Positions 996 through 64,000 of a stretch of DNA of 64,000 bases are shown one piece after another. Numbering within the stretch: the stretch's first letter is position 1; the number at the start of each line of letters is the position of its first letter. The translations under genes were made by a program, and so were the position numbers. This stretch comes from Pristiophorus japonicus (Eukaryota): NCBI RefSeq assembly GCF_044704955.1, contig NC_091999.1, positions 57,970,001 through 58,034,000 of the forward strand. Reading direction: 5' to 3'. The notes beneath the pieces are model-generated. The model made no database searches. It saw only the letters and a program-made list of their open reading frames with translations, and was not told the origin of the DNA.

Positions 996-2006
996 ATGGA
1001 GAAACCGTGGAAATGTGGGGACTGTGGGAAGGGATTCAGATCACCATCTGTCCTGGAAATTCATCAACACAGTCATACTGGGGAGAGGCCATTCACCTGC
1101 TCTGAGTGTGGGAAGCGATTCACTCAGTCATCCGACATGCTGAAATACCAGCGAGTTCACACTGGGGAGAGGCTGTTCACCTGCTCGGAGTGTGGGAAGG
1201 GATTCACTGCATCATCCGACCTGCTGAAACACCAGCGAGTTCACACTGGGGAGAGGCCGTTCTCCTGCTCGGAGTGTGGGAAGGGATTCATTTGTTCATC
1301 CAACCTGCTGAAACACCAGCGAGTTCACACTGGGGAGAGGCCGTTCACCTGCTGTGAGTGTGGGAAGGGATTCACTTGTTCATCCAACCTGCTGACACAC
1401 CAGCGAGTTCACACTGGGGTGAGGCCGTTCACCTGCTCTGAGTGTGGGAAGGGATTCACTCAGCCATCCATCCTGCTGACACACCAGCGGGTTCACACTG
1501 GGGAGAGGTCGTTCACTTGCTCTGAGTGTGGGAAGGGATTCACTCAGTCATCCCACCTGCAGTCACACCAGCGAGTACACACTGGGGAGAGGCCGTTCAC
1601 CTGCTCGGAGTGTGGGAAGGGATTCACTTGTTCATCCAACCTGCTGGCACACCAGCGAGTTCACACTGGGGAGAGGCCATTCACCTGCTATGAGTGTGGG
1701 AAGGGATTCACTTGTTCATCCCACCTGCTGACACACCAGGGAGTTCACACTGGGGAGAGGCCATTCACTTGCTCTGAATGTGGGAAGGGATTTACTCAGT
1801 CATCCAACCTGCTGACACACCAGCGAGTACACACTGGGGAGAGGCCGTTCACCTGCTCGGAGTGTGGGAAGGCATTTACTCAGGCATCCCACCTGCTGAC
1901 ACACCAGCGAGTTCACACTGGGGAGAGGCCATTCACCTGCTCGGAGTGCGGGAAGGGATTCACTCAGTCATCCACCCTGCTGAAACACCAGCGAGTTCAC
2001 AAGTGA
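996..2006 (+). CDS. Tandem C2H2 zinc-finger protein, 12 fingers, no KRAB/SCAN domain visible
   Basis: Open 336-aa ORF of CxxC-x12-HxxxH fingers joined by TGERPF linkers. Finger 2 has H>Y. The upstream part of the exon (candidate acceptor TTTACAG ~693) carries two decayed fingers with three in-frame stops (~925-960), so this is either N-terminally truncated or an incipient pseudogene. Confidence 0.88.
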
Positions 2007-4530: not shown

Positions 4531-4689
4531 CCTTGGAGGATAAGCCACACCCTGAGATTTCACTGGAATGTGTAACTGGAACCGCCCATCCCAAGGTCTC
4601 ACTGACTTTGCAAATTGAAACTTGATCCACTTTGAATTGCTGAAGTGCCAGAGGACAGAGCTCCCCATAAGATAGCAAGGGCCAGCCAA

Positions 4690-7600
4690 AGTACCTTGCC
4701 CCCATCCCAGTGCATGCCTCCCCCAGCCGAAGTGCATTACCCCAGTCCCAGTACATGCCTCCCCCAGCAGAAGTGCTTTACCCCAGTCCCAATACATGCC
4801 CCCCCCAGCAGAAGTGCTTTACCCCAGTCCCAATACATGCCTCCCCCAGCCAAAGGGGTTTACCCCAGTCCCAATACATGCCTCCCCCAGCCGAAGTGCT
4901 TTACCCCAGTCCCAATACATGCCTCCCCCAGCCGAAGGGCTTTACCCCAGTCCCAAGATATGCCTCCCCCAGACGAAGTGCCTTACACCAGTCCCAGTGC
5001 ATGCCTCACCCAGCAGAAGTGCCCGACACTAGTCCCATTGCATTTCTCCTCCCGCCGAAGTGTCTTACCACCATCCAAGTATATGCCTCCCACAGCCAAA
5101 GTGCCTTACCCCAGTCCCAGTATATGCCTCCCCAGCCGAAGTGCCTTACCAAAGTTCAAGTGCATGCCTCTCCCAGCCGAAGTGCCTTACTCCAGTCACA
5201 GTGCATGCCTCCCCCAGCCGAAGTGCCTTACCCCAGTCAGAGTGCATGCCTCCCCCAGCCGAAGTGCCTTACCCCAGTCCCAGTGCAACCCTCCACCAGC
5301 TGAAGTGCCTTACCCCAGTCCCAGTGCATGCCTCCCCCAGCTGAAGTGCCTTGTCACAGTGTGAGTGCATGCCTCCAACAGCCAAAGTATTTTACCCCAG
5401 TCGCAGTGCATGCCTTGCCCAGCCGAAGTGCCTTACCCTAATCCCAGTATATGCCTTCCCCAGCCAAAGTACCCTACCCCAGTCCCAGTGCATGCCTCCC
5501 CCGCCGAAGTGCCTTACCCCAGTCCCAGTGCATGCCTCCCCCAGCCGAAGTGCCTTATCCCAGTCCCAGTTTATGCCTCCCCCAGTTGAAGTGCCTTACC
5601 CCAGTGCCAGTGTATCCCTCCCTCAGTTGAAGCGCCTTACCCCAGTCCAGTCTATGCCTCGCCCAGCCGAAGTGCCTTACCCCAGTCCCAGTGCAACCCT
5701 CCCCCAGCTGTGGTGCCTTATCCCAGTCACAGTATGTGCCTCCCCCAGCCGAAGTGCCTTACCCCAGTCCCATTGCATGCCTCCCCCAGCAAAAGTGCCT
5801 TATCCCAGTCACAGTGCATGCCTCCCCCAACCAAAGTGCCTTATCCCAGTCACAGTGCATGCCTCCCCCAGCTGAAGTGCCTTAGCCCAGTCCCAGTGCA
5901 TGCCTCCACCAGTTGAAGTGCCTTACCCCAGTCCCAGTGCATGCCTCCACCAGCCGAAGTGCCTTATCCCAGTCCCAGTTTATGCCTCTCCCAGTTGAAG
6001 TGCCTTACCCCAGTGCCAGTGTATCCCTCCCTCAGTTGAAGCGCCTTACCCCAGTCCAGTCTATGCCTCGCCCAGCCAAAGTGTCTTACCCCAGTCCCAG
6101 TGCAACCCTCCCCCAGCTGTGGTGCCTTATCCCAGTCACAGTATGTGCCTCCCCCAGCCGAAGTGCCTTACCCCAGTCCCATTGCATGCCTCCCCCAGCC
6201 AAAGTGCCTTATCCCAGTCACAGTGCATGCCTCCCCCAACCAAAGTGCCTTATCCCAGTCACAGTGCATGCCTCCCCCAGCTGAAGTGCCTTAGCCCAGT
6301 CCCAGTGCATGCCTCCACCAGTTGAAGTGCCTTACCCCAGTCCCAGTGCATGCCTCCACCAGTTGAAGTGCCTTAGCCCAGTCCCAGTGTCAGTTGAAGT
6401 GCCTTAGCCCAGTCCCAGTGCATGCTTCCCCCAGCCGAAGTACCTTACCCAAGTCACAATATATGCCTCCCCCAGCCGAAGTAGCGTTTCTCAGTGCAAA
6501 TGCATGCCTCCATCAGCCAAAGTACCCTACCCCAGTCCCAGTATATGCCTCACCCAGCCAAAGTGCCTTACCCCAGTCCCAGGGTATCCCTCCCCAGCTG
6601 AAGTGCCTTAGACCGGTCCCGGTGGAAGCCTCCCGCAGTTGAAGTGCCTTATTCCAGACCCAGTGTATCCCTCCCACAGTTGAAGTGCCTTTCCTCCAGT
6701 CAAAGTGTATTGCTCCCCAGCCGAAGTTTCTTACTCCAGTCCCAGTGTATGCCTCCCCCAGTTGAAGTGCCTTACCCCAGTGCCAGTTTATCCCTCCCCC
6801 AGTTGAAGTGCCTCCCCCAGCCATTGTGCCTTACCCCAGTCCCAGTGCATGCCTCCTCAGCCAAAGTGCTCTAACCCAATCCCAGTATATGCCTCCCCCA
6901 GCTGTAGTGCCTTAATTCAGTCCTAGTGTAACCCTCCCTCTGTTGAAGTGCCTTACCCCAGTCCCAGTGTATGCCTCCCGCAGTTGAAGTACCTTGTTCC
7001 TGTCCCAATGTATCCCTCCCACATTTGAAGTGCCTTACCCCAGTCCAAGTATATACCTCCCCCAGTTGAAGAGCCTACCCCGAGTCCCAGTGCATGCCTC
7101 CCCGAGTTGAAGTGCATTGTTACAGTCCCAGTGCATCCCTCCCCAGCCGAAGTACCTTACCCCAGTCCCACTGTATCCCTACCCAGATGCAGTGCCTTAC
7201 CCCAGTCCCAGTACATGCCTCTCCCAGTTGAAGTGCCTTACTCCAGTCCGAGTGCACACCTCTGCCAGCCGAAGTCGCTTACACCCGTCCCAGTGCATGC
7301 CTCTCCCAGCCAAAATGCCTTGTCCCAGTCCCAGTATATGCCTCCACCAACCAAAGTGCCTTAAACCAGTCACAGTTTATGCCTATCCCAGCCAAAGTGC
7401 CTTACCCCAGACCCAGTGCACACCTCCCCCACAACCGAAGTCCCTTACCCCATCCCAGTGCATGCCTCCCCCAGCCGAAGTGCCTTGCCACAGTATGAGT
7501 GCATGCCACCCCCAGCCAAAGTATTTTACCCCAGGCGCAGTGCATGCCTTGCCCAGCCGAAATGCCTTACCCCCATTGCAGTGCTTGCCTCCCCCAGCCG

Positions 7601-9490
7601 AAGTACCCTACCCCATTCCCAGTATATTCTCCACCAGCCGAAGTGCCTTACCCTAGTCCCAGTGCATGCCTCCCCCAACCGTAGTGCCTTATCCTAATCC
7701 CAGTGTATCCCTCCCCCAATTGAAGTGCCCTTAACACAGTCTCAGTTTATGCCTCCCCCATTTGAAGTGTCTTATTCCAGACCCAGTGTAGCCCTCCCAC
7801 AGTTGAAGTGCCTTTCCTCCAGTCCCAGTGTATCCCTCCACCAGTTGAAGTGTCTTACTCCAGTCCCAGTGTTAGCATCCCCCAGTTGAAGTGCCTTACC
7901 CCAGTCCCAGGGTATCCCTCCCAGCTGAAGTGCCTTTGCCCAGTCCTGGTGTAAGCCTCCCGCAGTTGAAGTGTCTTATTCCAGACACAGTGTATCCCTC
8001 CCACAGTTGAAGTGCCTTTCCTCCAGTCACATTGTATCGCTCCCCAGCCAAAGTTTCTTACTCCAGTCCCAGTGTATGCCTCCCTCAGTTGAAGTGCCTT
8101 ACCCCAGTGCCAGTTTATCCCTCCCCCAGTTGAAGTGCCTTACCCCAGTGCCAGTTTATCCCTCCCACAGTTGAAGTGCCTTACCCCAGTCCCAGCGCAT
8201 GCCTCCCCCAGTTGAAGTACCTTGTTATTGTCCCAATATATCCCTCCCACATTTGAAGTACCTTACCCCAGTCCCAGTGTATCCCTCCCCAGCCGAAGTA
8301 CCTTACCCCAGTCCATGTGTATCCCTCCCCCAGTTGAAGCACCTTGTTCCTGTCCCAATGTATCCCTCCCACATTTGAAGTGCCTTACCCCAGTCCCAGT
8401 GTATCCCTCCCCAGCCGAAGTACCTTACCCCAGTCCATGTGTATCCCTCCCCCAGTTGAAGTACGTTGTTCCTGTCCCAATGTATCCCTCCCACATTTGA
8501 AGTGCCTTACCCCAGTCCCAGTGTATTCCTCCCCAGCCGAAGTGCCTTACCCCAGTCCCAGTGCATGCCTGCCCTAGTTGAAGTGCCTGAACCCAGTCCC
8601 AGTGCATGCCTACCCTAGTTGAAGTGCCTTAACCCAGTCCCAGTGCATGCCTACCCTAGTTGAAGTGCCTTAACCCAGTCCCAGTGCATGCCTGCCCAAG
8701 TTGAAGTGCCTTAACGCAGTCCCAGTGCATGCTTACCCGAGTTGAAGTGCCTTACCCCAGTCCCAATGTATCCCTCCCCCAGCCGATGTGTCTTACCCCA
8801 GTCCCAATGTATCCCTCCCCCACCGATGTGCCTTACCCCAGTCCCAATGTATCCCTCCCCAGCTGAAGTGCCTTACCCCAGTCCCAATGTATCCCTCCCC
8901 CACCGATGTGCCTTACCCCAGTCCCAATGTATCCCTCCCCCAGTTGAAATGCCTTACCACAGTCCCAATGTATCCCTCCCCCAGTTGAAATGCCTTACCC
9001 CAGTCCCAATGTATCCCTCCCCCACCGATGTGCCTTTTCCCAGTCCCAATGTATCCCTCCCCCAGTTGAAGTGCCTTACCCCAGTCCCAGTGCATGTGTC
9101 CCCGACCCGATGTGCCTTACCCCAGTCCTAGTGCATGTCTCCCCCAGCCGATGTGCCTTACCCCAGTCCTAGTGCATGTCTCCCCCAGCCGATGTGCCTT
9201 ACCCCAGTCCTAGTGCATGTCTCCCCCAGCCGATGTGCCTTACCCCAGTCCTAGTGCATGTCTCCCACAGCCGATGTGCCTTACCACAGTCCTAGTGCAT
9301 GTCTCCCCCAGCCGATGTGCCTTACCACAGTCCTAGTGCATGTCTCCCCCAGCCGATGTGCCTTACCCCAGTCCCAGTGCATGTCTCCCCCAGCCGATGT
9401 GCCTTACCCCAGTCCCAGTGCATGTCTCCCCCAGCCGATGTGCCTTACCCCAGTCCCAGTACATGTCTCCCCCAGCCGAAGTGCCTTCCT
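4690..9490. repeat. 41-bp C-rich/G-rich minisatellite, ~4.8 kb
   Basis: The unit CCCAGTCCCAGTGCATGCCTCCCCCAGCCGAAGTGCCTTAC is repeated over 100 times with regional variants. It produces all the Pro-rich ORFs in this interval. Confidence 0.97.
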
Positions 9491-43147: not shown

Positions 43148-43292
43148 ACTGTAATATAAATAGAGACAGGGTCTCGTGTAATGAAAATAGGGACAGGGTC
43201 TCGTGTAATATAAACAGAGACAGGGTCTAGTGCAATGTAAGCAGGGACATGGTCTAATGTAATCTCAGCAGAGACAGGGTCTAGTGCAGTAA
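43148..43292 (+). repeat. Short array of the 27-bp satellite
   Basis: About 5 copies of GTAATATAAACAGAGACAGGGTCTAGT. Confidence 0.85.
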
Positions 43293-43659
43293 TCCATTTT
43301 AAATCTCCGGCTTGTGGTTACTGTCCGTCCTACCAGTGGCAAAGGTTTCTAACTATTTACTTGATTAAAACTCCTCATAATTTCGATCGCCACTATTAAA
43401 TCTGCCTTAACATTCTCGGATATAAGGAGCACCGTCCCAGTTTCCAGCCGTTCTACTGATGCACCTCATGAACATCCAGATGAGGAGTCGCTAAGATTTG
43501 ATCCCATTTTACAACAGTGCCAGAATATCATCCCAGGCAAGATAAGAGTATTATCCGAGGGAATTAAACCGACTGTGTAAGACTCGTCTCAGGCTTTGAA
43601 CTTTGGACACTCTGAACTAAATGACAACATCTAAAAAATTAAGCTGTGACGTGCTAAAG

Positions 43660-44095
43660 CCCTGGTACAATGGGATCACTCTCACCTCTGAGTGAGAAGG
43701 CTGTGGGTTCACAACCCCTCTCCAGAGACTGAGCACATAATCTTGGCTGGCACTCCCGGTACCAGTACCGAAGGAGAAGGGGAGGGGGGCTATATTGACG
43801 GTGGAGCAGTCTTTCGGATGAGACGTTACATCTGCTGAGTCTTCGCTTACAGTTGGATGTAAGAGATTGAATGGCACTATTTTAAATAGCAGGGGAGTTC
43901 ACCCCGAAGTCCATTACACATATTTATCCATTAACCAGCATCGCTAAAGAACAGATTCTATGGTTATTATCACATTATGTTTGTGGGAGTTTGCTGTGTG
44001 CAATTTGACTCCACGTTTCCTACATTACAAAAGTGACTACACTTCAAACGTACTTCAATATAAAGCACTTTTGGACATTCTGAGGACGTGAAAAT
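43660..44095 (+). mobile_element. tRNA-derived SINE with Deu-domain-like core (SacSINE1-like)
   Basis: Head CACTCTCACCTCTGAGTGAGAAGG.TGTGGGTTCA, core GTCTTTCGGATGAGACGTTA...GGGGAGTT...GTTTGTGGGAGTTTGCTGTG, and an L2-like tail. Confidence 0.7.
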
Positions 44096-44946
44096 CGTGA
44101 AAGTTATTTCTAAAAGTCAACATTTAAAATACACGTTGCAATGGGTGAATCCTCTGGTCGCATTGTTAACTTGTTTAGTTTAAGTGGCTGGAATCTTACG
44201 CTAAATGGACATTCAGTGAATTACTGATCTGTTCAGCGAGGTTCCATTGACTTTGGTAGCAGAATTTTCAGAATTGAATTATTAATTTTAATATGTTCCC
44301 TTTGATATAAATCATATCTCTTCTAATTGAACAAACCAAAAACCGATGTCACAGCTGGAGATATTTCCATTTCTTTGTACCAACTACCAATATTCATAAA
44401 ATAAACCTGTGCTGTGAGTTAAAACTAATCAGTAAATTACTTTGTGGATCTGCTTTTGCTGCCATGAACACTTCATGGAAATCTGTGAGGTGTTTCTGTA
44501 AATAAACGCAGAAATAGAAGTCCCAGATTAGAATAGTGAACGACAGAATAGAAATAAACAGAGAAAGAAACGCTAATGTCTCAACGGATTCCAGCAACAA
44601 TTGATGTTTGGGATATTTTTTTTCAGTTATTGGTGAACAAATCAACGATGTTATCCGCGGCCAGAATGGGGAAAGATTCCAGTCACCATACATAGTCACA
44701 GCTCAAATGTATTCGTGGCAATTCCCTGCATCCCCTCCCTCTCTGCCTCTCTCTAATATCCCCACCTTTTGCCTTGCCTGTAAAGAATGCGTCATTATTT
44801 TACCTCACAATAAGAAGTCAATGTCTAACAAAAATGTTCTCTAAGGTCTATTTCCAGGCCTCACACCAAATTGGTAGGTGTGCGGAATGGCAGCTTTATA
44901 ATAAAATATGTCGTGTGAACTCAATGATCTTGGGTGTTTGATGTGA

Positions 44947-45420
44947 CTCTGTAGCGGGAACTTTACTCTGCATCTAACTACGTGCTGTACCTGCCCTGCG
45001 AGTGTTTAATGGGACGGTTTCGAGAGAGCTTTGCTCTGCATAGATCAGTGATGTACCTGCTCTGGAAGAGTTTGATGGGACGGTATAGAGGGGGCTTTAC
45101 TCTATAGCTTACCCGTGCTGTACCTGCCCTGGCAGTCTTTGCTGGGACAGTGTTTTGGGAGCTTTACTCTGCATAGACCAGAGCTGTACCTGCCCTGGGA
45201 GAGTTTGATGGGACGGTGTTGAGCAAGATTTACTCTCTATCTAAACCGTGCTGTACCTGCCCTTGGAGATTTTGATGTTACGGTGTAGAGGGAGCTTTAT
45301 TGTTTTTCGAATCGTGCTGTACCTGAGCTGGGAGTGTTTGACGGGACAGCATCGAGGGAGCTTTTCTTTGCATAGACCCGCGCTGTCCCTGCCCTGGGAA
45401 TGTTTTAATGGACAGTGTGA
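44947..45420. repeat. ~66-bp satellite (~7 copies)
   Basis: Unit GTGCTGTACCTGCCCTGGGAGTGTTTGATGGGACAGTGTAGAGGGAGCTTTACTCTG.ATCTAACC. Decayed copies also lie at ~57520-58040. Confidence 0.88.
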
Positions 45421-45641
45421 TATCACTATCGCAGAAAATTGTTTTTGTCAGTGCAACTTCCTGTATATTGCATTTCGTGTTTACCTGTTTGACATCATCA
45501 CGTCAGCAACACGTAAACAATGGGTGACGTCATTGTTTACAACAAAGCAGCGTCATCAACGTGATTTGGTCGCCATTGCTACATCAGTGCGACGTCTGAC
45601 CCTCAGCCAAATGGATTGCTCGATTTGACCTATATATACAC

Positions 45642-46560
45642 CAGGGTCTAGTGCAGTAATAACCGAGACGCGTCCAAGTGTAACATAGACAGAGAGAGGA
45701 TATAGTGTAATATCTACAATGACAGGGACCAGTGTAAAAAAAAAAGACACAGCGTCTAGTGTAATATAAACAGAGACAGGGTCTTGTGTAATATAAACAG
45801 AGACAGTGTCTAGTGTAATATAGAAAATAAAGGGTATCGTGTAATATAAACAGAGACAATGTCGAGTGTAATATAAAAAATACATTTTCTAGTGTAATAT
45901 AAACAGAGACAGTGTCTAGTGTAATATAAACAGAGACAGTGTCTAGTGTAATATAAACAGAGACAGTGTCTAGTGTAATATAAACAGAGACAGTGTCTAG
46001 TGTAATGTAAAAAATACAGTGTCTAGTATAATATAAACAGAGACAGGGTCTAGTGTAATATAAATAGAGACAGGGTCGAGTGTAATATAAATAGAGACAG
46101 GGTCTAGTGTAATATAACCAGAGACAGGACCAATCTATTATAAAGAGACAGGGGATAGTATAATATAAATAGTGACAGAGTCCAACATAATATAACAAAG
46201 GATAAAGTGCTCTAATACTAACTAATACATGAACTATTGTAGTAGAAACATTGACATTTTCTAGTGCAATATAAACTGAGACATGTCGAGTGTAATATAA
46301 AGCGAGACAGGAACTAGTGAAATATTGACAGAAACGTGGTGTACGGTCATATAAACAGTGACAGCGTCTAGTTCAGTAGTAACTGAGAATGGGTCTAATG
46401 TATTATAACGGAGGGTCCAGTACTGTGATAACTGATACAGAGCCGAGCATAATATAAACAGAGACAGGGTCTAGTGCAGTAATAACTGAGACAGGGCCTT
46501 GTGCAATCCGAAAAGAGAGATGTAGTTATAATTAAACAGGGTCCAGAGTAATTTAAACAT
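45642..46560 (+). repeat. 27-bp satellite array, forward orientation
   Basis: GTAATATAAACAGAGACAG(G/T)GTCTAGT units, decaying rightwards. Confidence 0.92.
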
Positions 46561-46715
46561 ATAGAATGTCTGGAATAATTTGATAGTAACATTCCAGCCA
46601 TGCGAATCTTCATGTGGTCTGACTGTCTATCTGTCTGTCGTTCGGTCGGTCGGTCCATTCGTCTGTCCGTCCGTCCGTCGATTCGTACTTCTATCCATCT
46701 ATCTGTACTTCTATC

Positions 46716-48750
46716 TAATATTACACTAGAACCTGTCTCTCTTAAGATCCTGTTCCTGTTAATATTACCCGAGACCCTGTCTCTGTTTATATTACCCGTG
46801 TCCATGTCTCTGTTTATATTGTACTAGACCCTGTCTCTGTTTATATTACACTAGACTCTGTCCCAGTTTTTATTATACTGGACACTGTCTCTGTTTATAT
46901 TAGTCAAGACTCTGTCCCTGTTTATATTATAATGGATCCTGTCGGTGTTTAGATTATACTGGACCCTGTCCCAGTTTATATCGCACTAGACCCTGTTTCT
47001 GTTTATATTAAGTAGACTCTGTTTCTGTTTTTATTACACTGGACCCTGTCTCTGTTTATATTACACTAGACCCTGTCCCAGTTTATATTACACTAGACCC
47101 TGTCTCTGTTTATATTGTACTAGACCCTGTCTCTGTTTATATTACACTAGACCCTGCCTCTGTTTACATTACATTAGACCCACTCCCAGTTCATATTATA
47201 CCAGAGACTGTCTCTGTTTATATTAGTCTAGACCCTGTCTCTGTTTATATTCTACTAGACCCTGTCTCTGTTTATATTACACTGGACCCTGTTTCTGTTT
47301 ATATTAAACTAGACCCTGTCTCTGCTTATTTTACACTAGACCCTGTCTCTGTTTATATTCTTCCAGACACTATCGCTGTTTATATTACACTAGACTCTGT
47401 CTCTGTTTATATTACACTAGACCCTGTCTCTGTTTATATTGTACTAGACGCTGTCTCTGTTTATATTAAACTAGACCCTGCCTCTGTTTACATTACACTA
47501 GACCCTCTTCCAGTTCATATTATACTGGACCCTGTCCCTGTTTATATTAAACTAGATCCTGTCTCTGTTTATTTTACACTGGACCCTGTCTCTCTTCATA
47601 TTACATTAGACCCTGTGTCCTTTTATATTAAACACGACCCTGTCTCTGTTTATATTACACTAGACCCTGTCTCTGTCTATATTCTTCTTAACACTATCCC
47701 TGTTTATATTGGACTCGACCCTGTCTCTGTTTATATTGAACTAGACCCTGTCTCTGTTTTTATTGCACTAGACCCTGTCTCTGTTTATATTACACCAGAC
47801 ACTGCCTCTGTTTATATTCGTTCTGACACTATCCCTGTTTATATTACACTAGACCCTGTCTCTGTTTGTATTACACTAGACCCTGTCCCTGTTTATATTA
47901 CACTAGACCCTGTCTTTGTTTATATTCTTCCAGACACTATCCCTGTTTATTTTGGACTCGACCCTGTCTCTGTTTATATTAAACTAGACCCTGTCTCTGT
48001 TTATATTACACTAGACCATGTTTCTGTTTATATTCTTTCTGACACTATCCCTGTTTATATTACACTATACCCTGTCTCTGTTTGTATTACACTAGACCCT
48101 GTCTCTGTTTATATTACACTAGACCATGTCTCTGTTTATAATACACCAGACACTGCCTCTGTTTATATTCTTTCTGACACTATCCCTGTTTATATTACAC
48201 TGGGCCCTGTCTCTGTTTGTATTACACTAGACCCTGTCACTGTTTATATTACACTAGACCCTGTCTCTGTTTTTATTCTTCCAGACATTATCCCTGTTTA
48301 TATTACACTAGACCCTGTCTCTGTTTATAATACACTAGACCCTGTCTCTGTTTATATTAAAATAGACCCTGTCTCTGTTTATATTACACTAGACCATGTC
48401 TCTGTTTATATTCTTTCTGACACTATCCCTGTTTTTATTACACTAGACCCTGTCTCTGTTTGTATTACACTAGACCCTGTCTCTGTTTATATTACACTAG
48501 ACCATGTCTCTGTTTATATTACACCAGACACTATCTTTGTTTATATTCTTTCTGACACTATCTCTGTTTATATTACACTAGACCCTGTCTTCCCTGTCTT
48601 TTTTTGTATTACACTAGACCTTGTCTCTGTTTATATGCCAGTAGACACTGTGTCAGTTTATATCACACGAGACCCTGTCTCTTTTTATAATACGCCAGGC
48701 ATTGTCACTGTTTATATTATCCTCGACACTGTCTCTCTTTGTATTACCCA
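46716..48750 (-). repeat. 27-bp satellite array, inverted orientation
   Basis: About 75 ACTAGACCCTGTCTCTGTTTATATTAC units, the reverse complement of the preceding array. Confidence 0.95.
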
Positions 48751-52900: not shown

Positions 52901-52988
52901 CGGCCACTGGGAGCGCAATACAACAGTCTGGGAGTGGGTTTGCTCAGTGAGTTCTTGCCGGAACCAGTCACCACACATTGCCATGAGG

Positions 52989-53034
52989 ATGAGGTCGGCG
53001 ATTGCTTTCGTTCTGTTGCTGGCTTTACTTTCCC
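52989..53034 (+). pseudogene. IGHV: IgH V leader exon
   Basis: MRSAIAFVLLLALLS with a phase-1 donor C|GTGTGT. It splices to the acceptor at 53162 to give ...SRVQS|DVVLTQ. Confidence 0.88.
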
Positions 53035-53162
53035 GTGTGTAGATTTTATTGTCCAATTCTCTCATTGTTACTGTCTCAGTGAAAGTCTCTCTCTGGAATT
53101 TTACAGAGTCAGGAATCATTTCTCGAGGATTGATCCTCGGGGTATTTTGATTATTTTTACAG

Positions 53163-53482
53163 GTGTCCAGTCGGATGTGGTGTTGACTCAGCCCGAGGCA
53201 AAGACCAGGATTTCCTGAGGCTTCCTGAGACTGACCTGTAAACCAGCGGGTTCGATCTTAGCGGATATGGCATGAACTGGGTCCGCCAGGTTCCCGCACA
53301 GGAGCTGGAGTGGCTGGTTTACTATTACACTCCATCGAACAAGAATAACGTCCCAGGGATTGAGAGCCGATTTACTGTATCCAAAGACACTTCAAACAAC
53401 ATCTTCACGTTGGACATGAAGAACATGAGGAGCGAAGACACCGCCATCTATTACTGTGCAAGGAAGGACTACGGGAGTGGGT
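53163..53482 (+). pseudogene. IGHV: IgH V segment with D-like sequence fused at its 3' end; pseudogene
   Basis: [22 protein letters not shown][-1][17 protein letters not shown]...[22 protein letters not shown] followed by KDYGSG. There is a stop in FR1 and a 1-nt deletion after the first Cys. Confidence 0.93.
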
Positions 53483-53520
53483 CACGGTGAAATACAGAGC
53501 GAGCTCTCCATACAAAAACC
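53483..53520 (+). promoter_or_regulatory. Recombination signal sequence, 22-bp spacer
   Basis: CACGGTG + 22 nt + ACAAAAACC (consensus nonamer). Confidence 0.93.
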
Positions 53521-53837
53521 CCAGACAGGGAGTTTGCTCAAACCTGCGACCATTACCACGCCAGGAGCGTCGAAGGAACTGAGGCTTAAATAAAAATAAT
53601 TAGAAATAAGTTATATATATATATATATTTAAATGTGTAACAGTTTTCTTCTTTATTACTATTGATTGCCATGTTGAACATGCACAGATGCTTCAGAAGT
53701 ATTCCAATCATTTTTGTAAATATAATGAACGGTAAAAAATGAAATATCTCGCTGATTCACTCTTACGAGAGTCGGAATCGTGTTTTTAGAGCTGTGTGGA
53801 ATTTAATCTCTGTATTTTACAGTTAACAGTCCGCCGG

Positions 53838-53865
53838 AGTATTTGACACAACGTGTCTCACTGTG
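53838..53865 (-). promoter_or_regulatory. Recombination signal sequence, 12-bp spacer, in front of the (D)J segment
   Basis: AGTATTTGA (6/9 match to GGTTTTTGT) + 12 nt + CACTGTG. No nonamer-like sequence at 22/23-nt spacing. Confidence 0.75.
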
Positions 53866-53915
53866 TTACGCAATGGGCTACTGGGGACAAGGGACCATGG
53901 TGACGGTGACTGCAG
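53866..53915 (+). other. IGHJ: IgH J (or DJ) segment
   Basis: YAMGYWGQGTMVTVTA with the WGxG motif and donor G|GTAAG. Confidence 0.95.
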
Positions 53916-56900
53916 GTAAGGAGCATTCACTGATTCAGTAACACTTGTATTTGTGTCTTTATTTTATATTTTTGTTTATTTTAATAATTACTTTGTTCAC
54001 TGAAACTTGGGTTCGGTGGATTTTGTTTTGAGATTTTTTGCAATGTTCAATGTGATTCTGCTGCAAAGTGATTATAGAATTCAACTGTTTCTCCACAGAA
54101 AATGTTGTTGATGTGATTTGGTATTTATTTGCTGACGAGACTGTGTGTCTAGGTTACTTTAAATACTTAATGATTATTACACTGTTTGACGTTTCTGCAA
54201 TGTTTAATCTTGGTGACCCATGATTGCTGCAGTTTTTCTGATCGAATGCAAACATTGTGTTTGAATGTGTTTAAAAGAACATTGTAGGCACAAAGCAGAA
54301 AGCTTAGTGATCAGTAAATACCCTTAAGGAATTTTAAGTTTTTTCATGAAAATTACATTGTCATCTCCTGACCGAATGTTCCCGAATGATCAGATTCAAT
54401 ACGTGAGCTGTAATTAAGAACTGAAAAATTAACATATTTCCAGCTGGAACACATTTAAATTAACATTATTATAACGTAGTAATATCACCAATTATTATTT
54501 AAATATGCTATACTTACAAATTAATGTATTTAACATGATCCATCGAATCACAATTCTCTGTCAGTATTTTATATTTCTGTTGAATTCAATCATTAGTTAT
54601 TTCAGTGTGAGTCGGGTTCGGTGATTGTGTAATGAGATTTTTTTGCAATGATATATTTGATTCTGCTGAAAGGGTTTATAGAATTACGGATCTGCTCCAT
54701 GAAAGGTTCTGTCGAGGGATTCCGCCCCTCAGCGATGTGATTTAGTGTTGATCTTCTGAGGAGAGTTCGTGCCTGTGTTACTCAGAATACTTAGAATTTG
54801 TGAAGCTGTTTGGCGTTTCTACCATGTTTAATATCGGTGACAGCGGGTAGCAGCAGGTTTCTGATCGAATCCAAACACGATATGTATTTTGAAACTGTTT
54901 GAAAACAGTAGGTAGGCAAAGAACAGGACGGGTTTAGACATCAGAAATCATTGAAAGGTATTTTAAAATCACAATTATTGAAGTGATAATTATATATTCA
55001 ACTATTAATCTATGTTGACGATGCTGGTATTTTAATATGTGAAATGTAACTAGTTGCCATCTACATAATTAACTTATTCAGGTTGTAGTTGAATTAAATT
55101 ACTATTAACCAACCGATTATAATGCAATAATATCTCCGAATGTTATTAAAATATGCTATAAGTCCAATGTTCATTTACTTAATATTATTCACCTTCAAAA
55201 ATCCTGCTCTACACTGGGCACTATTAAGGGAAGCAGAAACTTTTAGAGGCTGGATACAGTTGTTAATTATGCCTGCAATTATTTCATTAACAACATACTG
55301 ATTCCACCGCTGTGTTCAGTTTGAGTCGGGAGTTCAATTACTTGCTACCTCCTGTTTACACAGATGAATGACTGAGTGCAATTAATTATAACTTGAAGCC
55401 GTGTTGCAAATTGCATTTTGTCAATTTAATATATCTGCCGGGGTGTGACATTCTCACTGTGTAGCCGAAATTTGTTATTGAATCAATATTGTGTGTTGTT
55501 TGATAAAATTATCACTAAGTTAATCTCGAACACTTTGCAAGAACAAAAGCTGAGAGAGAGGCATCGCTGGCAGTCAAAGAATTGTTCATGTAATTATATT
55601 GAAATTCAAGGCAGGTTCCGACTGCGTATGGCTGGAGAAAGCAAATAATCCATTGAAATTCAAGCAGATTAATTTACTTACAAAAGGTTCATCTGATTTC
55701 GAATTTGATACAAAGTCCTATCTCCCAAAACGCTGCTGTATGCGGAATAGAACGGTAGACAAAGCACAAATCATATCTGAGTGCTATGTTTAATTCTTAT
55801 TAATATTAAATTGATGAACAAAGTCTCTCCTCCATTTGCTCATTCAGTTTCAGTGCCCCAGATGGTCTGAATGAATTGTTATCCTCTAGTTTTACACTGA
55901 CCATTCTGGAAACTATTTTCAAGAAGTAGCAGAATATATTTAATCATTAACTTACGGGCATTTTGTGAATAACTGGAGTGTTCACCCATGAACTCATTGA
56001 ATGGCCTACTCCTGCAGCTATTTTCTATGTTTCTATGAACTTTAAAAGATTGTCTGTCTTATTAAGTAGCGGAGGCTCTGCTACTGACTGCAAAATGCAA
56101 GGATATATTTTAATTAATAAAAACTTTTTTGGGGATTAAGGTTGAGGAGAATATTTCAGCTCGAGATTCCAGCATTAGTAAACAAGCGGTTTACAGCCCA
56201 TCGGAGTTGTGACCCCGGCTGGACAGAGAACTATTTAAATTAGTCCACACCCAAATCCATCATGTGAAATATTCTCTGCGAATAGACGCAGATTATGCGA
56301 TATTATAAACATGCAGAGTTTAAAAAGGTGTCGGTCGAGAGCGGGACAATAGTAGAAATGCGTGATTATTGTCAATTATTCAAATTTGATTCCATTTAAG
56401 TAAAAATAAAGTATATTTATGAGTAGTTATGTATTAATATGCTGCTTAATATTGTAATATTGATTAATTGTTATGGTAAGTTAAGTAAACCATAATATAT
56501 CACAAGTTATCAGGCAGAAAAGGTTTTAAAATTATTAATAATTACTTGTATTTGTATGGCTGAAATTCAAGCACATTAATTTAATTTCAAAAGTTCCAGG
56601 TAGGTATGCTTCTGAGGAGGAAGGGCCAGACTGGCACTCAGATTATTTTCAATATTCAGCTAACATGAACATTAAATTAGAATGTAACATAAGTGCTAAT
56701 TCATTAAAACGTAAGCGAGCCCTTACAATTGTTTTGCATACTGGTCAGTATTACAATTATTGCAACATTTCAAGGGTTGGAGATAATGTTTAATTCATTC
56801 ATAAATTAATTTAGAAAACAATGCATTGATAACTCGGCTGTGCTGAGTTCGACAAGGTGTCGCTGCAGATTTTAGTGAATTAATTTCCTGTTTTGCCGCG

Positions 56901-60443: not shown

Positions 60444-60742
60444 TAACACGGTCTCCCCCCACCCTCTGCGCCCTGTTCCCTCCTGTGAACAACCCAGCAC
60501 CGATGGCTCCATCACGTAGGGCTGTTTGGTGATGGACTACTCCCCTGACATCATCAGACTTTTCTGGAAGGAAGATAAAGAGCCGATCACCACTGGATTG
60601 AAGATCTACCCGTCATTGATCAAAAAGAATTGAGCCTACACACTGAGCAGCCAGTTAACCATCACCGAGTCCGAGTTGGGGAGCAGCACAATTTGCTGCG
60701 AGGTTCGACGTGGTGGATCGGTGTGGAACATCACAATGTCAG
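60444..60742 (+). pseudogene. IGHM: IgM heavy-chain CH1 exon (disrupted)
   Basis: [30 protein letters not shown]...[53 protein letters not shown] matches shark IgM CH1. AG/GT boundaries are present, with one frameshift and two stops. Confidence 0.92.
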
Positions 60743-61206: not shown

Positions 61207-61554
61207 GCAATGTCAATAAAATGCCTTCTCGTAAACGTCCTGAACGGATCATCGTTCCTCCAATTGTTCTCCTCTTGCTAAGCTCCACTGAACAAATCAT
61301 CAGCAGCAGATATGCAAGCGCCATGTGTTCAATCATCGAATTAAGGCCAAAGTCACTGACCATGAATTGGCTGAAGAGTGAACAACTCCTGGATTCGGGC
61401 TTCACCACCTCTCCCGCCTTTGAGATGAACAGAAACGTTTTGACGGCCAGTCGGCTGACACTCCCCGACAGGGAATGGTTCACCGGCTCGGTCTACACCT
61501 GCCAGGTCACTCATGAATGGGGCACACAAAGCCGTAACTTCAGCAGATCTCAGG
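61207..61554 (+). pseudogene. IGHM: IgM CH2 exon (frame open, in-phase acceptor not evident)
   Basis: PPIVLLLLSSTEQIISSRYASAMCSII...WLKSEQLLDSGFTTSP...EWFTGSVYTCQVTH..TQSRNFSRSQ, donor G|GTAAGA. The 5' boundary is approximate. Confidence 0.88.
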
Positions 61555-61689
61555 GTAAGAGGCACAATCCAGGGAGGTTCCAGACCATTCTGAGCGTTGA
61601 TCTCAGTCAGGACTTTGATTGAAATTAGTAGAAAGCAGAGGAATATTCCTAATTTCCAATCATGCAGTTTGTGTATTCTTGCGATACAA

Positions 61690-63525: not shown

Positions 63526-63833
63526 TGGATGTCCCATGCAGCGATTAAAAATCACTCTTCGCCCACCGTAATTGGAACAGGTTTTACTGGAGGCAACGGT
63601 GACCTTAACGTTTGTCGTGTCTGACGCTCCTTATGGGCTCACCGTGACCTGGACCCGAAAAAACGAGACTTTGAAATCAGAGATTGCCGTCCAACCCAGA
63701 GAGGATCCCAACAGTGTGATCAGCAACTTAAACATCTCGACAAAAGACTGGCTGAGTGGGGATAAGTTCTACTGCGTGGTGAGCCATCAGGATATGCCGA
63801 TTCCTCTCAGAGATTCCAGCCACAAGGAAAAGG
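63526..63833 (+). pseudogene. IGHM: IgM CH3 exon (disrupted)
   Basis: [35 protein letters not shown]...[37 protein letters not shown], with acceptor CGCAG and donor G|GTGAG. It has a frameshift, a stop, and the first canonical Cys replaced by Phe. Confidence 0.92.
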
Positions 63834-64000
63834 GTGAGCGGGGAGATTGTTGCAATAAGTGAGAAACTGCGACAATTTCGATGCGTGTGCAAGGGCCAAT
63901 TGATTATATAAAGTGTTTAATGGCTACTCTGATCATTCAGGTTGGTAATTCCACCAACTCAGCACTCTGGGACCTGAGATTATGTATTTTGGGGGAAACT

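What the first reader, a model, noticed from the sequence alone, without database searches (positions are those of the whole stretch)
53440..53915. IgM cluster apparently frozen in a pre-joined VD-DJ state with one 22/12 RSS pair
Seen: V runs through YYCAR into 19 extra nt (AAGGACTACGGGAGTGGGT) before a 22-RSS. About 320 bp later a 12-spacer RSS precedes J, and no free D segment lies between them. Established: canonical elasmobranch IgM clusters are V22-12D1 22-12D2 12-22J with intervals of a few hundred bp, and germline-joined clusters exist. Inference: the extra bases are D1 (TAC...GTGGGT resembles shark D1) plus junctional nucleotides, and J carries the 5' 12-RSS of D2. That implies two RAG joins fixed in the germline, leaving a light-chain-like single-step V-J locus. 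It would be a fossil of RAG activity in germ cells.
Basis: partly seen in the sequence, partly recalled or inferred. Interest (0 to 1): 0.75.

Follow-up and report, generated by a model that had tools for sequence, protein, structure and literature searches.

The report
Shark antibody genes missing second D
This is a dead copy of a shark antibody gene whose pieces are already partly fused in the genome, likely by the antibody-assembly enzyme acting in an ancestor's germ cells, which is a known state; more unusual, none of its close relatives found in this genome keeps a free second D piece, so the intact ones would assemble antibodies in fewer steps than standard shark genes.

Summary
V is fused to a full 17-nt D1 that keeps its 22-RSS. 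The spacer is the D1-D2 interval (79% identical to two-D clusters). J carries D2's 5' 12-RSS. VD-DJ is a published germline state. Three corrections: this copy is a pseudogene (V stop and frameshift, broken Cmu); J keeps only 0-2 nt of D2; and the two joins were not one event. The D2-RSS/J fusion is shared by 44 loci: 26 dead copies with this V-D1 junction, 9 open-frame copies with a second V-D1 junction, and 9 open-frame V23-12D22-12J single-D clusters (4 of 6 checked have intact Cmu1-4). None of 65 family loci examined has a free D2; all 12 two-D clusters found belong to another VH family. So D2-to-J likely came first, then V-to-D1 twice, then amplification. Whether D2 went by a heavily trimmed coding joint (45%), a hybrid joint (40%) or a heptamer-to-heptamer deletion (about 12%) is open. 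A second sample holds the RSS-J junction and spliced J-Cmu1 of single-D genes. Somatic use of the 12-RSS J is not shown. The scan noted other germline-joined genes in this genome, not this one.

The parts
52983..53034 (+). Leader exon (ATG at 52983 or 52989; GT donor at 53035)
   Evidence: sequence
53163..53465 (+). VH exon, pseudogene: TGA at 53216-53218, 1-nt deletion near 53240; last 2 nt (AA) likely V-end remnant
   Evidence: both lesions shared by 25 of 26 copies with this junction
53466..53482 (+). D1 coding segment, full 17 nt, fused to V
   Evidence: same length and start as the free D1 of unjoined paralogues L031-L035, L041, L042, L044, L049
53483..53520 (+). D1 3' RSS, 22-nt spacer, near consensus
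   Evidence: same position as in unjoined paralogues
53521..53837 (+). D1-D2 intervening sequence, with an AT-rich stretch of about 98 nt absent from the two-D family
   Evidence: 226 of 285 aligned positions identical to L070 D1-D2; no signal against V-D1 or D2-J intervals
53838..53865 (-). 12-spacer RSS, originally the 5' RSS of D2, now directly in front of J
53866..53915 (+). JH: 2 extra nt (TT) plus an untrimmed J (14 nt before the Trp codon, as in all 12 two-D clusters); GT donor at 53916
60444..60742 (+). Cmu1 exon, 1-nt deletion and stops
61241..61558 (+). Cmu2 exon, open frame but acceptor reads AC (boundaries approximate)
63527..63834 (+). Cmu3 exon, 1-nt deletion and stop; Cmu4 lies just beyond the window and is 13 nt short (boundaries approximate)

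Best explanation
This is a dead, duplicated IgM heavy-chain cluster in which V is fused to D1 and J sits directly behind D2's 12-spacer signal, and both fusions were likely made by RAG in ancestral germ cells, in two steps at different times. Step 1 (inferred, oldest): D2, its 3' RSS, the D2-J interval and J's own 23-RSS were deleted, leaving 0-2 nt between D2's 5' heptamer and an untrimmed J. This gave a single-D cluster, V23-12D22-12J, of which 9 copies survive with open V frames (shown). I put an ordinary D2-to-J coding joint that trimmed D2 almost away at 45% and a hybrid joint at 40%. Step 2 (inferred): V-to-D1 joins happened twice independently on this background, giving type A (this locus) and type B. 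Step 3 (shown by shared lesions): type A acquired a stop and a frameshift and was then copied to at least 25 places. The window copy cannot make a heavy chain. By the 12/23 rule type B copies would need one somatic cut-and-join (22 x 12), and single-D copies would allow V-D-J or direct V-J joining (predicted, not shown).
For: Interval is the D1-D2 spacer: local scores 105-113 against shuffle maxima 25-29 in 4 of 4 two-D clusters, and 16-21 for the other two intervals. Genome-wide pattern for the D2 5' RSS: 56 matches, 44 in this family, all abutting J, and 12 in intact V-D1-D2-J clusters. D2 3' RSS: 14 matches, none in this family or on C23. The V-end-plus-heptamer pattern gave 25 matches in this family, all loci already examined. 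The 44 intervals form one group against the two-D family (100/100) and all carry the extra AT-rich stretch. Types A (26) and B (9) have different V-D1 junctions and are separate starred clades in V and interval trees. Type B joins through a 4-nt overlap (GGAC) of V end and D1 start. 25 of 26 type A copies share the stop and deletion. Junctions fall at coding ends next to RSSs. A second sample of the same species label holds a contig across the type B RSS-J junction (8 differences to L035; the 4 listed are type B's, and L036 has 8) and a J-to-Cmu1 splice matching L041/L042. Germline RAG joining in sharks is established (PMC2193156).
Against: No member of this VH family with a free D2 was found, so its own D2 and native J end are unknown; D2 was read from a more distant family (Cmu 69-88% identical in protein). 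Trees of V, interval and J intron disagree on where L031/L041/L042 and type A sit, so exchange between clusters blurs the order of events, and D2 could have been lost more than once. The 2 nt before J (TA or TT; none in 12 of 44) do not match the GT that starts D2 in the two-D family. Searches score only the best 40 candidates (92, 90 and 146 found), so counts are lower bounds. Five of the 35 VD-DJ loci lie on small contigs and may be alleles. No sperm or erythrocyte data, and no rearranged transcript using the 12-RSS J was seen.
Confidence: 0.85

Rival explanations
1. Step 1 was a deletional hybrid joint: RAG paired D2's 5' 12-RSS with J's 23-RSS (same orientation) and joined the D2 signal end to the J coding end, swapping J's signal from 23 to 12 and removing D2 wholly.
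For: Intact heptamer, untrimmed 14-nt J and 0-2 non-matching nt between them are what a hybrid joint predicts. The pair obeys 12/23. A germline hybrid joint that swapped RSSs is documented in horn shark (PMC2193153).
Against: In mouse, D-J inversional joints, mostly hybrid, are about 3 logs rarer than normal D-J joints (PMC2194253). Other germline joins in this genome also keep very little D (about 3-6 nt of possible D2 in L055/L064/L065, L043, L066; about 6 nt of D1 in L048), so heavy trimming is not rare here.
Confidence: 0.4
2. Step 1 was a RAG-independent deletion between the two identical CACTGTG heptamers in front of D2 and in front of J.
For: Both sites read CACTGTG in two-D clusters. 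A deletion between them gives exactly the flush junction of 12 of 44 loci (type B and L035, L044, L049).
Against: 32 of 44 loci carry 2 extra nt, and the flush form is nested among them in the trees. Seven bases is a short homology, and the other junctions of the family sit at RAG-type borders.
Confidence: 0.12
3. J natively had a 12-RSS and the V extension is ordinary V sequence.
For: No two-D member of this family was found.
Against: Unjoined paralogues end V 6-8 nt after TGTGC and carry the 17-nt segment as a free D about 480 nt downstream. The RSS and the whole upstream spacer are those of D2. All 12 two-D clusters have 23-RSS J segments.
Confidence: 0.02
4. A somatic lymphocyte rearrangement or an assembly artefact.
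For: VD-DJ is a real somatic intermediate in nurse shark lymphocytes (PMC2435157), and the source tissue is unknown.
Against: The same junction stands in 26 loci 92-100% identical over 751 nt, on both strands, from 23 to 66 Mb of one contig, with nested shared mutations. The type B junction is in a second sample.
Confidence: 0.01

Closest known systems
Partially germline-joined IgM clusters of sharks and skates (VD-J, VD-DJ, VDJ); review PMC5192425 (passages), PMC3308330 (passages); Harding, Cohen, Litman 1990 NAR 18:1015 (not held; VD-DJ in skate is recalled)
   Same: Coding segments fused at RSS borders in inherited DNA, one RSS pair left, many copies, few or no added bases.
   Different: Here J keeps only 0-2 nt of D2; the unjoined-V precursor (V-D-J12) survives in 9 copies; two independent V-D1 junctions and several D-J junctions can be placed on trees.
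Nurse shark germline-joined NS4 light chains (Lee et al. 2000, PMC2193156; abstract and passages)
   Same: Joined and split genes of near-identical sequence in one genome, several independent joins, trimming with little TdT trace.
   Different: Heavy chain, multi-step, with intermediates that can in principle still rearrange.
Horn shark clone 1113 cluster, V23-12D1 12-23D2 12-23J, explained by germline hybrid joints (PMC2191167 passages; PMC2193153 passages)
   Same: RSS type next to a coding segment changed in the germ line.
   Different: There an inversion between D1 and D2 in a single cluster; here a deletion that removes D2 and gives J a 12-RSS across a family of 44 loci. Hybrid-joint origin is not proven here.
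TCR beta / delta signal layout V23-12D23-12J (recalled)
   Same: Same RSS polarity as the single-D clusters; direct V-to-J joining is allowed by the 12/23 rule.
   Different: These are IgM clusters with Cmu exons; the layout is derived from a two-D ancestor. A resemblance, not membership.

Membership tests
Elasmobranch IgM heavy-chain cluster | One V, D and J within about 1.5 kb, followed by four Cmu exons with a secretory tail | tested here: met
   Cmu4 plus tail of paralogue L049 matches mu heavy chains over residues 5-129. Broken in the window copy.
Elasmobranch IgM heavy-chain cluster | Transmembrane exons | tested here: inconclusive
   A single motif search in 20 kb behind J found none in 10 of 10 clusters, two-D ones included; not followed up.
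Germline-joined VD-DJ cluster | V fused to D1 with loss of the V-D1 interval, D1 3' RSS kept | tested here: met
Germline-joined VD-DJ cluster | J preceded by D2's 5' 12-RSS, D2-J interval lost | tested here: met
Germline-joined VD-DJ cluster | Recognisable D2 coding bases on J | tested here: inconclusive
   0-2 nt, not matching the D2 start of the two-D family.
Germline-joined VD-DJ cluster | Present in inherited, non-lymphoid DNA | tested here: met
   Indirect: 26 diverged copies share the junction; type B RSS-J junction in a second sample. Sperm or erythrocyte DNA not testable here.
RAG hybrid joint | Intact signal end of a 12-RSS joined to the coding end of a 23-RSS partner | tested here: inconclusive
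   The sequence fits but a fully trimmed coding joint or a heptamer deletion gives the same letters.
RAG hybrid joint | Reciprocal product (J signal end on D2 coding end) | not testable with these tools
   It would be an excised circle, lost.
Functional one-step (light-chain-like) IgH gene | Open V and C frames | tested here: not met
   Window copy and all 26 type A copies have broken V. Met in type B: 9 of 9 V open; Cmu1-4 intact in the 1 checked fully, and all exons reached intact in 2 more.
Functional one-step (light-chain-like) IgH gene | Somatic joining through the 22/12 pair | tested here: inconclusive
   No such joint among the 3, 5 and 2 contigs laid from three same-species runs; too shallow to say.

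The most novel reading that the evidence does not exclude
One germline RAG hybrid joint rewired the main (VH I-type) IgM family of this shark from V-D1-D2-J to a TCR-beta-like V23-12D22-12J layout; the family then expanded, its intact single-D and one-step VD-J12 genes supply rearranged antibodies with one D and short CDR3, and RAG went on to use the new 12-RSS again in germ cells (the nested D1-J joined class).
Probability: 0.25. Interest if true: 0.75.

Novelty: new variant of a known kind. Interest (0 to 1): 0.5.

Why it matters
The locus itself is an ordinary dead germline-joined gene. The family around it is a near-complete ladder of inherited RAG products in one genome: D2-J, then V-D1 twice, and D1-J. 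It includes intact genes whose signal layout differs from the standard shark cluster. If those genes rearrange, this is a natural case of the germline RSS swapping proposed to explain how Ig and TCR loci came to differ in 12/23 layout and D number. It would make two questions testable: does a heavy-chain gene with V23 and J12 skip its D, and does losing a D shorten the shark CDR3 repertoire.

Tried and rejected
Looked for a family member with a free D2 by V-D1 interval search, J 23-RSS pattern (13 IgM-type matches among 66, none on C23, the rest unrelated repeats or chance), D2 5' and 3' RSS patterns and V-end pattern: none. No RNA holder listed for a single-D cluster. Other species' runs laid at 80% likeness gave no piece that settles the junction: one DNA run shows J with a 23-type RSS, and one contig with 5 extra letters behind the heptamer could not be interpreted. 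No somatic joint through the 12-RSS J seen in three shallow same-species runs. A Cmu1+Cmu2 tree left the classes unresolved, and L031 dropped out for lack of Cmu2. The long type B branch in the 2-kb intron tree (0.36) is likely misalignment, since B's J-Cmu1 intron is about 1.2 kb shorter. The primary skate paper and a nurse shark IgM paper were not held. PMC12227049 passages held nothing on this. Junction tables in the supplements of PMC2435157 were not seen and could bear on how often D2 is trimmed away. No Pfam result was obtained for V. Sequence look-up in earlier scan findings: 0 look-alikes.

Full report
1. Observation. V ends TGT GCA AGG at 53463, then come 19 nt, a 22-spacer RSS (53483-53520; 1 match, 0.01 expected), a 317-nt spacer, a 12-spacer RSS (53838-53865) and J (53866-53915). 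The 12-RSS alone is at chance level; it is established by homology below. The window lies on contig C23 of a 5.9-Gb genome. An earlier AI note calls the animal a sawshark; I did not test this.

2. The gene is dead. V has an in-frame TGA and a 1-nt deletion. Cmu1, Cmu3 and Cmu4 are frameshifted and the Cmu2 acceptor reads AC. The constant region is IgM: intact paralogues have four exons and a secretory tail, and Cmu4 plus tail matches mu chains over residues 5-129.

3. The family. I examined 65 loci of this VH family (L001-L065) and 15 of a second family (L066-L075, L104-L108). By eye, the window's FR1 matches the horn shark VH I primer and the second family's FR1 matches clone 1113 (VH II), both as printed in PMC2191167 (passages). 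The 65 fall into these classes. Type A, V-D1 joined as in the window: 26 (23 on C23, 3 on small contigs). Type B, a different V-D1 junction: 9 (7 on C23). Single-D, V23-12D22-12J with V unjoined: 9, all on C23. V free with D1 joined through to J: 7 (c1), 9 (c2), 3 (c3) and L048. Fully joined: L043. The second family has 12 standard V23-12D1 22-12D2 12-23J clusters, 2 with D1-D2 fused and 1 with D fused to J. Counts are lower bounds: DNA searches scored 40 of 92, 90 and 146 candidates.

4. 53466-53482 is a full D1, as long as the free D1 of the single-D clusters. The two bases before it are AA in 25 copies and GA in L026, and unjoined V ends such as L031 read GGGACC, so they are likely V remnant. 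The spacer aligns with the D1-D2 interval of L070 at 226 of 285 positions, apart from an AT-rich stretch of about 98 nt; with RSSs stripped it scores 105-113 against D1-D2 intervals (shuffle maxima 25-29) and 16-21 against V-D1 and D2-J intervals in 4 of 4 clusters. The RSS before J is D2's 5' RSS. What follows it is J: 14 nt before the Trp codon, as in all 12 two-D clusters, plus 2 nt (TT or TA) in 32 of 44 loci and none in 12.

5. No free D2 was found in this family. The D2 5' RSS pattern gave 56 matches: 44 abut J in this family and 12 are the two-D clusters. The D2 3' RSS pattern gave 14, all in the second family. The J 23-RSS pattern gave none on C23. The V-end-plus-heptamer pattern gave 68 matches, of which 25 belong to this family and all were already examined. 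A diverged cluster could still escape these patterns.

6. Order of events (inferred). The 44 intervals group together against the two-D family and all are 379-401 nt against 286. In the J-intron tree they form a 51-row clade (100/98) with class c1. Types A and B are separate starred clades with different junctions; B joins through a 4-nt overlap of V end and D1 start. The simplest history is D2 loss first, then V-D1 joining twice. 25 of 26 type A copies share both V lesions, so most of that expansion followed gene death; 10 of 26 have since lost the CAC of the J heptamer and 2 that of the D1 heptamer. Class c1 is sister to single-D loci L031/L041/L042 (100/100), and holding the 12-RSS loci together without c1 is rejected (14 rows against 3, p-AU 2e-10). 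That suggests RAG used the new 12-RSS again in the germ line. Caveats: I named the group after seeing an overlapping tree; V, interval and intron trees disagree in places; and c1's junction can also be read as D1 plus 7-8 nt of D2 plus J. I give the reuse reading about 55%.

7. How D2 was lost. Three routes give these letters. (a) A normal D2-J coding joint with D2 trimmed to 2 nt or less: favoured by the rarity of hybrid joints in mouse (PMC2194253 passages) and by the short D remnants in other germline joins here; 45%. (b) A deletional hybrid joint between D2's 5' 12-RSS and J's 23-RSS: predicts an intact heptamer on a J coding end with no D2, and has a germline precedent in horn shark (PMC2193153 passages); 40%. 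(c) A deletion between the two identical heptamers: about 12%. These odds are my judgement.

8. Are the relatives alive? All 9 single-D and all 9 type B loci have open V frames. Of 6 single-D loci checked through Cmu4, 4 are intact (L033, L035, L041, L049); L032 has a 1-nt deletion in Cmu3 and L031 lacks Cmu2-4 within 20 kb. The other 3 are intact in Cmu1-2, the part fetched. Type B L028 is intact through Cmu4; L030 and L039 are intact as far as fetched. Three small runs of the same species label from another study were laid on L035 (3, 5 and 2 contigs laid; run type not on record). Run X20 holds (i) a 106-nt contig bridging the type B RSS-J junction, (ii) a J-to-Cmu1 splice whose letters match L041/L042 among 19 clusters compared, and (iii) a V joined to the c1 D1-J junction with new bases between; by my count it is 46 nt from Cys to Trp codon, so out of frame. 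Thus the type B and c1 junctions exist in a second sample, c1 can take a somatic-type V join, and single-D genes are spliced. None of this shows a somatic join through the 12-RSS J, and each point rests on one contig.

9. Comparison with what is known. VD-DJ is listed among germline-joined shark IgM forms (PMC5192425 passages); PMC3308330 (passages) gives about half of loci as joined. The skate paper I recall as the source was not held. Germline RAG joining with little TdT trace was shown for nurse shark light chains (PMC2193156 abstract and passages). VD-DJ and V-D-DJ are somatic intermediates in nurse shark (PMC2435157 passages). I found no report of germline single-D V23-12D22-12J IgM clusters in searches, but the library lacks most subscription journals and several primary shark papers.

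10. Verdict. The finding as given is real, and its kind is known; the copy is a pseudogene. The new part is at family level: apparent loss of D2 from one VH family, surviving intact single-D and one-step genes with a TCR-beta-like signal layout (that layout is recalled), and a ladder of germline joins. New variant of a known kind; interest 0.5.

Noticed in passing
L068-L074, L104-L108 (C27 and small contigs): All 12 two-D IgM clusters found have a V like horn shark clone 1113 (VH II, single-copy there) but a non-inverted D1-D2 interval; this would make the horn shark inversion derived.
   Followed up: partly
L066, L067, L075: The second VH family also has germline joins: D1-D2 fused with J free (L067, L075) and D fused to J with V free (L066).
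   Followed up: partly
L054, L056-L063; L045-L047, L050-L053; L055, L064, L065; L048: Twenty loci with V free (23-RSS) and D already joined to J behind D1's 12-RSS: another set of predicted one-step IgH genes, most with open V frames. One shows a somatic-type V join in run X20.
   Followed up: partly
family-wide, e.g. L031, L032, L055, L064: Coding ends next to heptamers vary by 1-2 nt between unjoined clusters (V 3' end 8, 7 or 6 nt after TGTGC; D1 and J 5' ends). This could reflect germline open-and-shut joints.
   Followed up: no
G000:C23:9.9-11.6 Mb: Fourteen V-end matches of TCR alpha/delta appearance with RSS heptamers on the same contig as the IgM family; D23 x J12 or V23 x J12 joins between loci would obey the 12/23 rule.
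   Followed up: no
window 1073-2001: Array of 11 C2H2 zinc-finger-like 84-nt units inside a 348-aa stop-free frame.
   Followed up: no
window 4682-9487 and 43150-48747: Long minisatellite arrays (41-nt unit, about 117 copies; 27-nt unit in both orientations) upstream of the IgM cluster.
   Followed up: no
window 54559-54963: A diverged (69%) second copy of the first part of the J-Cmu intron.
   Followed up: no
L043 (G000:C1467): Fully germline-joined VDJ of this family with an open V; the J lacks the usual Asp-Tyr before Trp.
   Followed up: no
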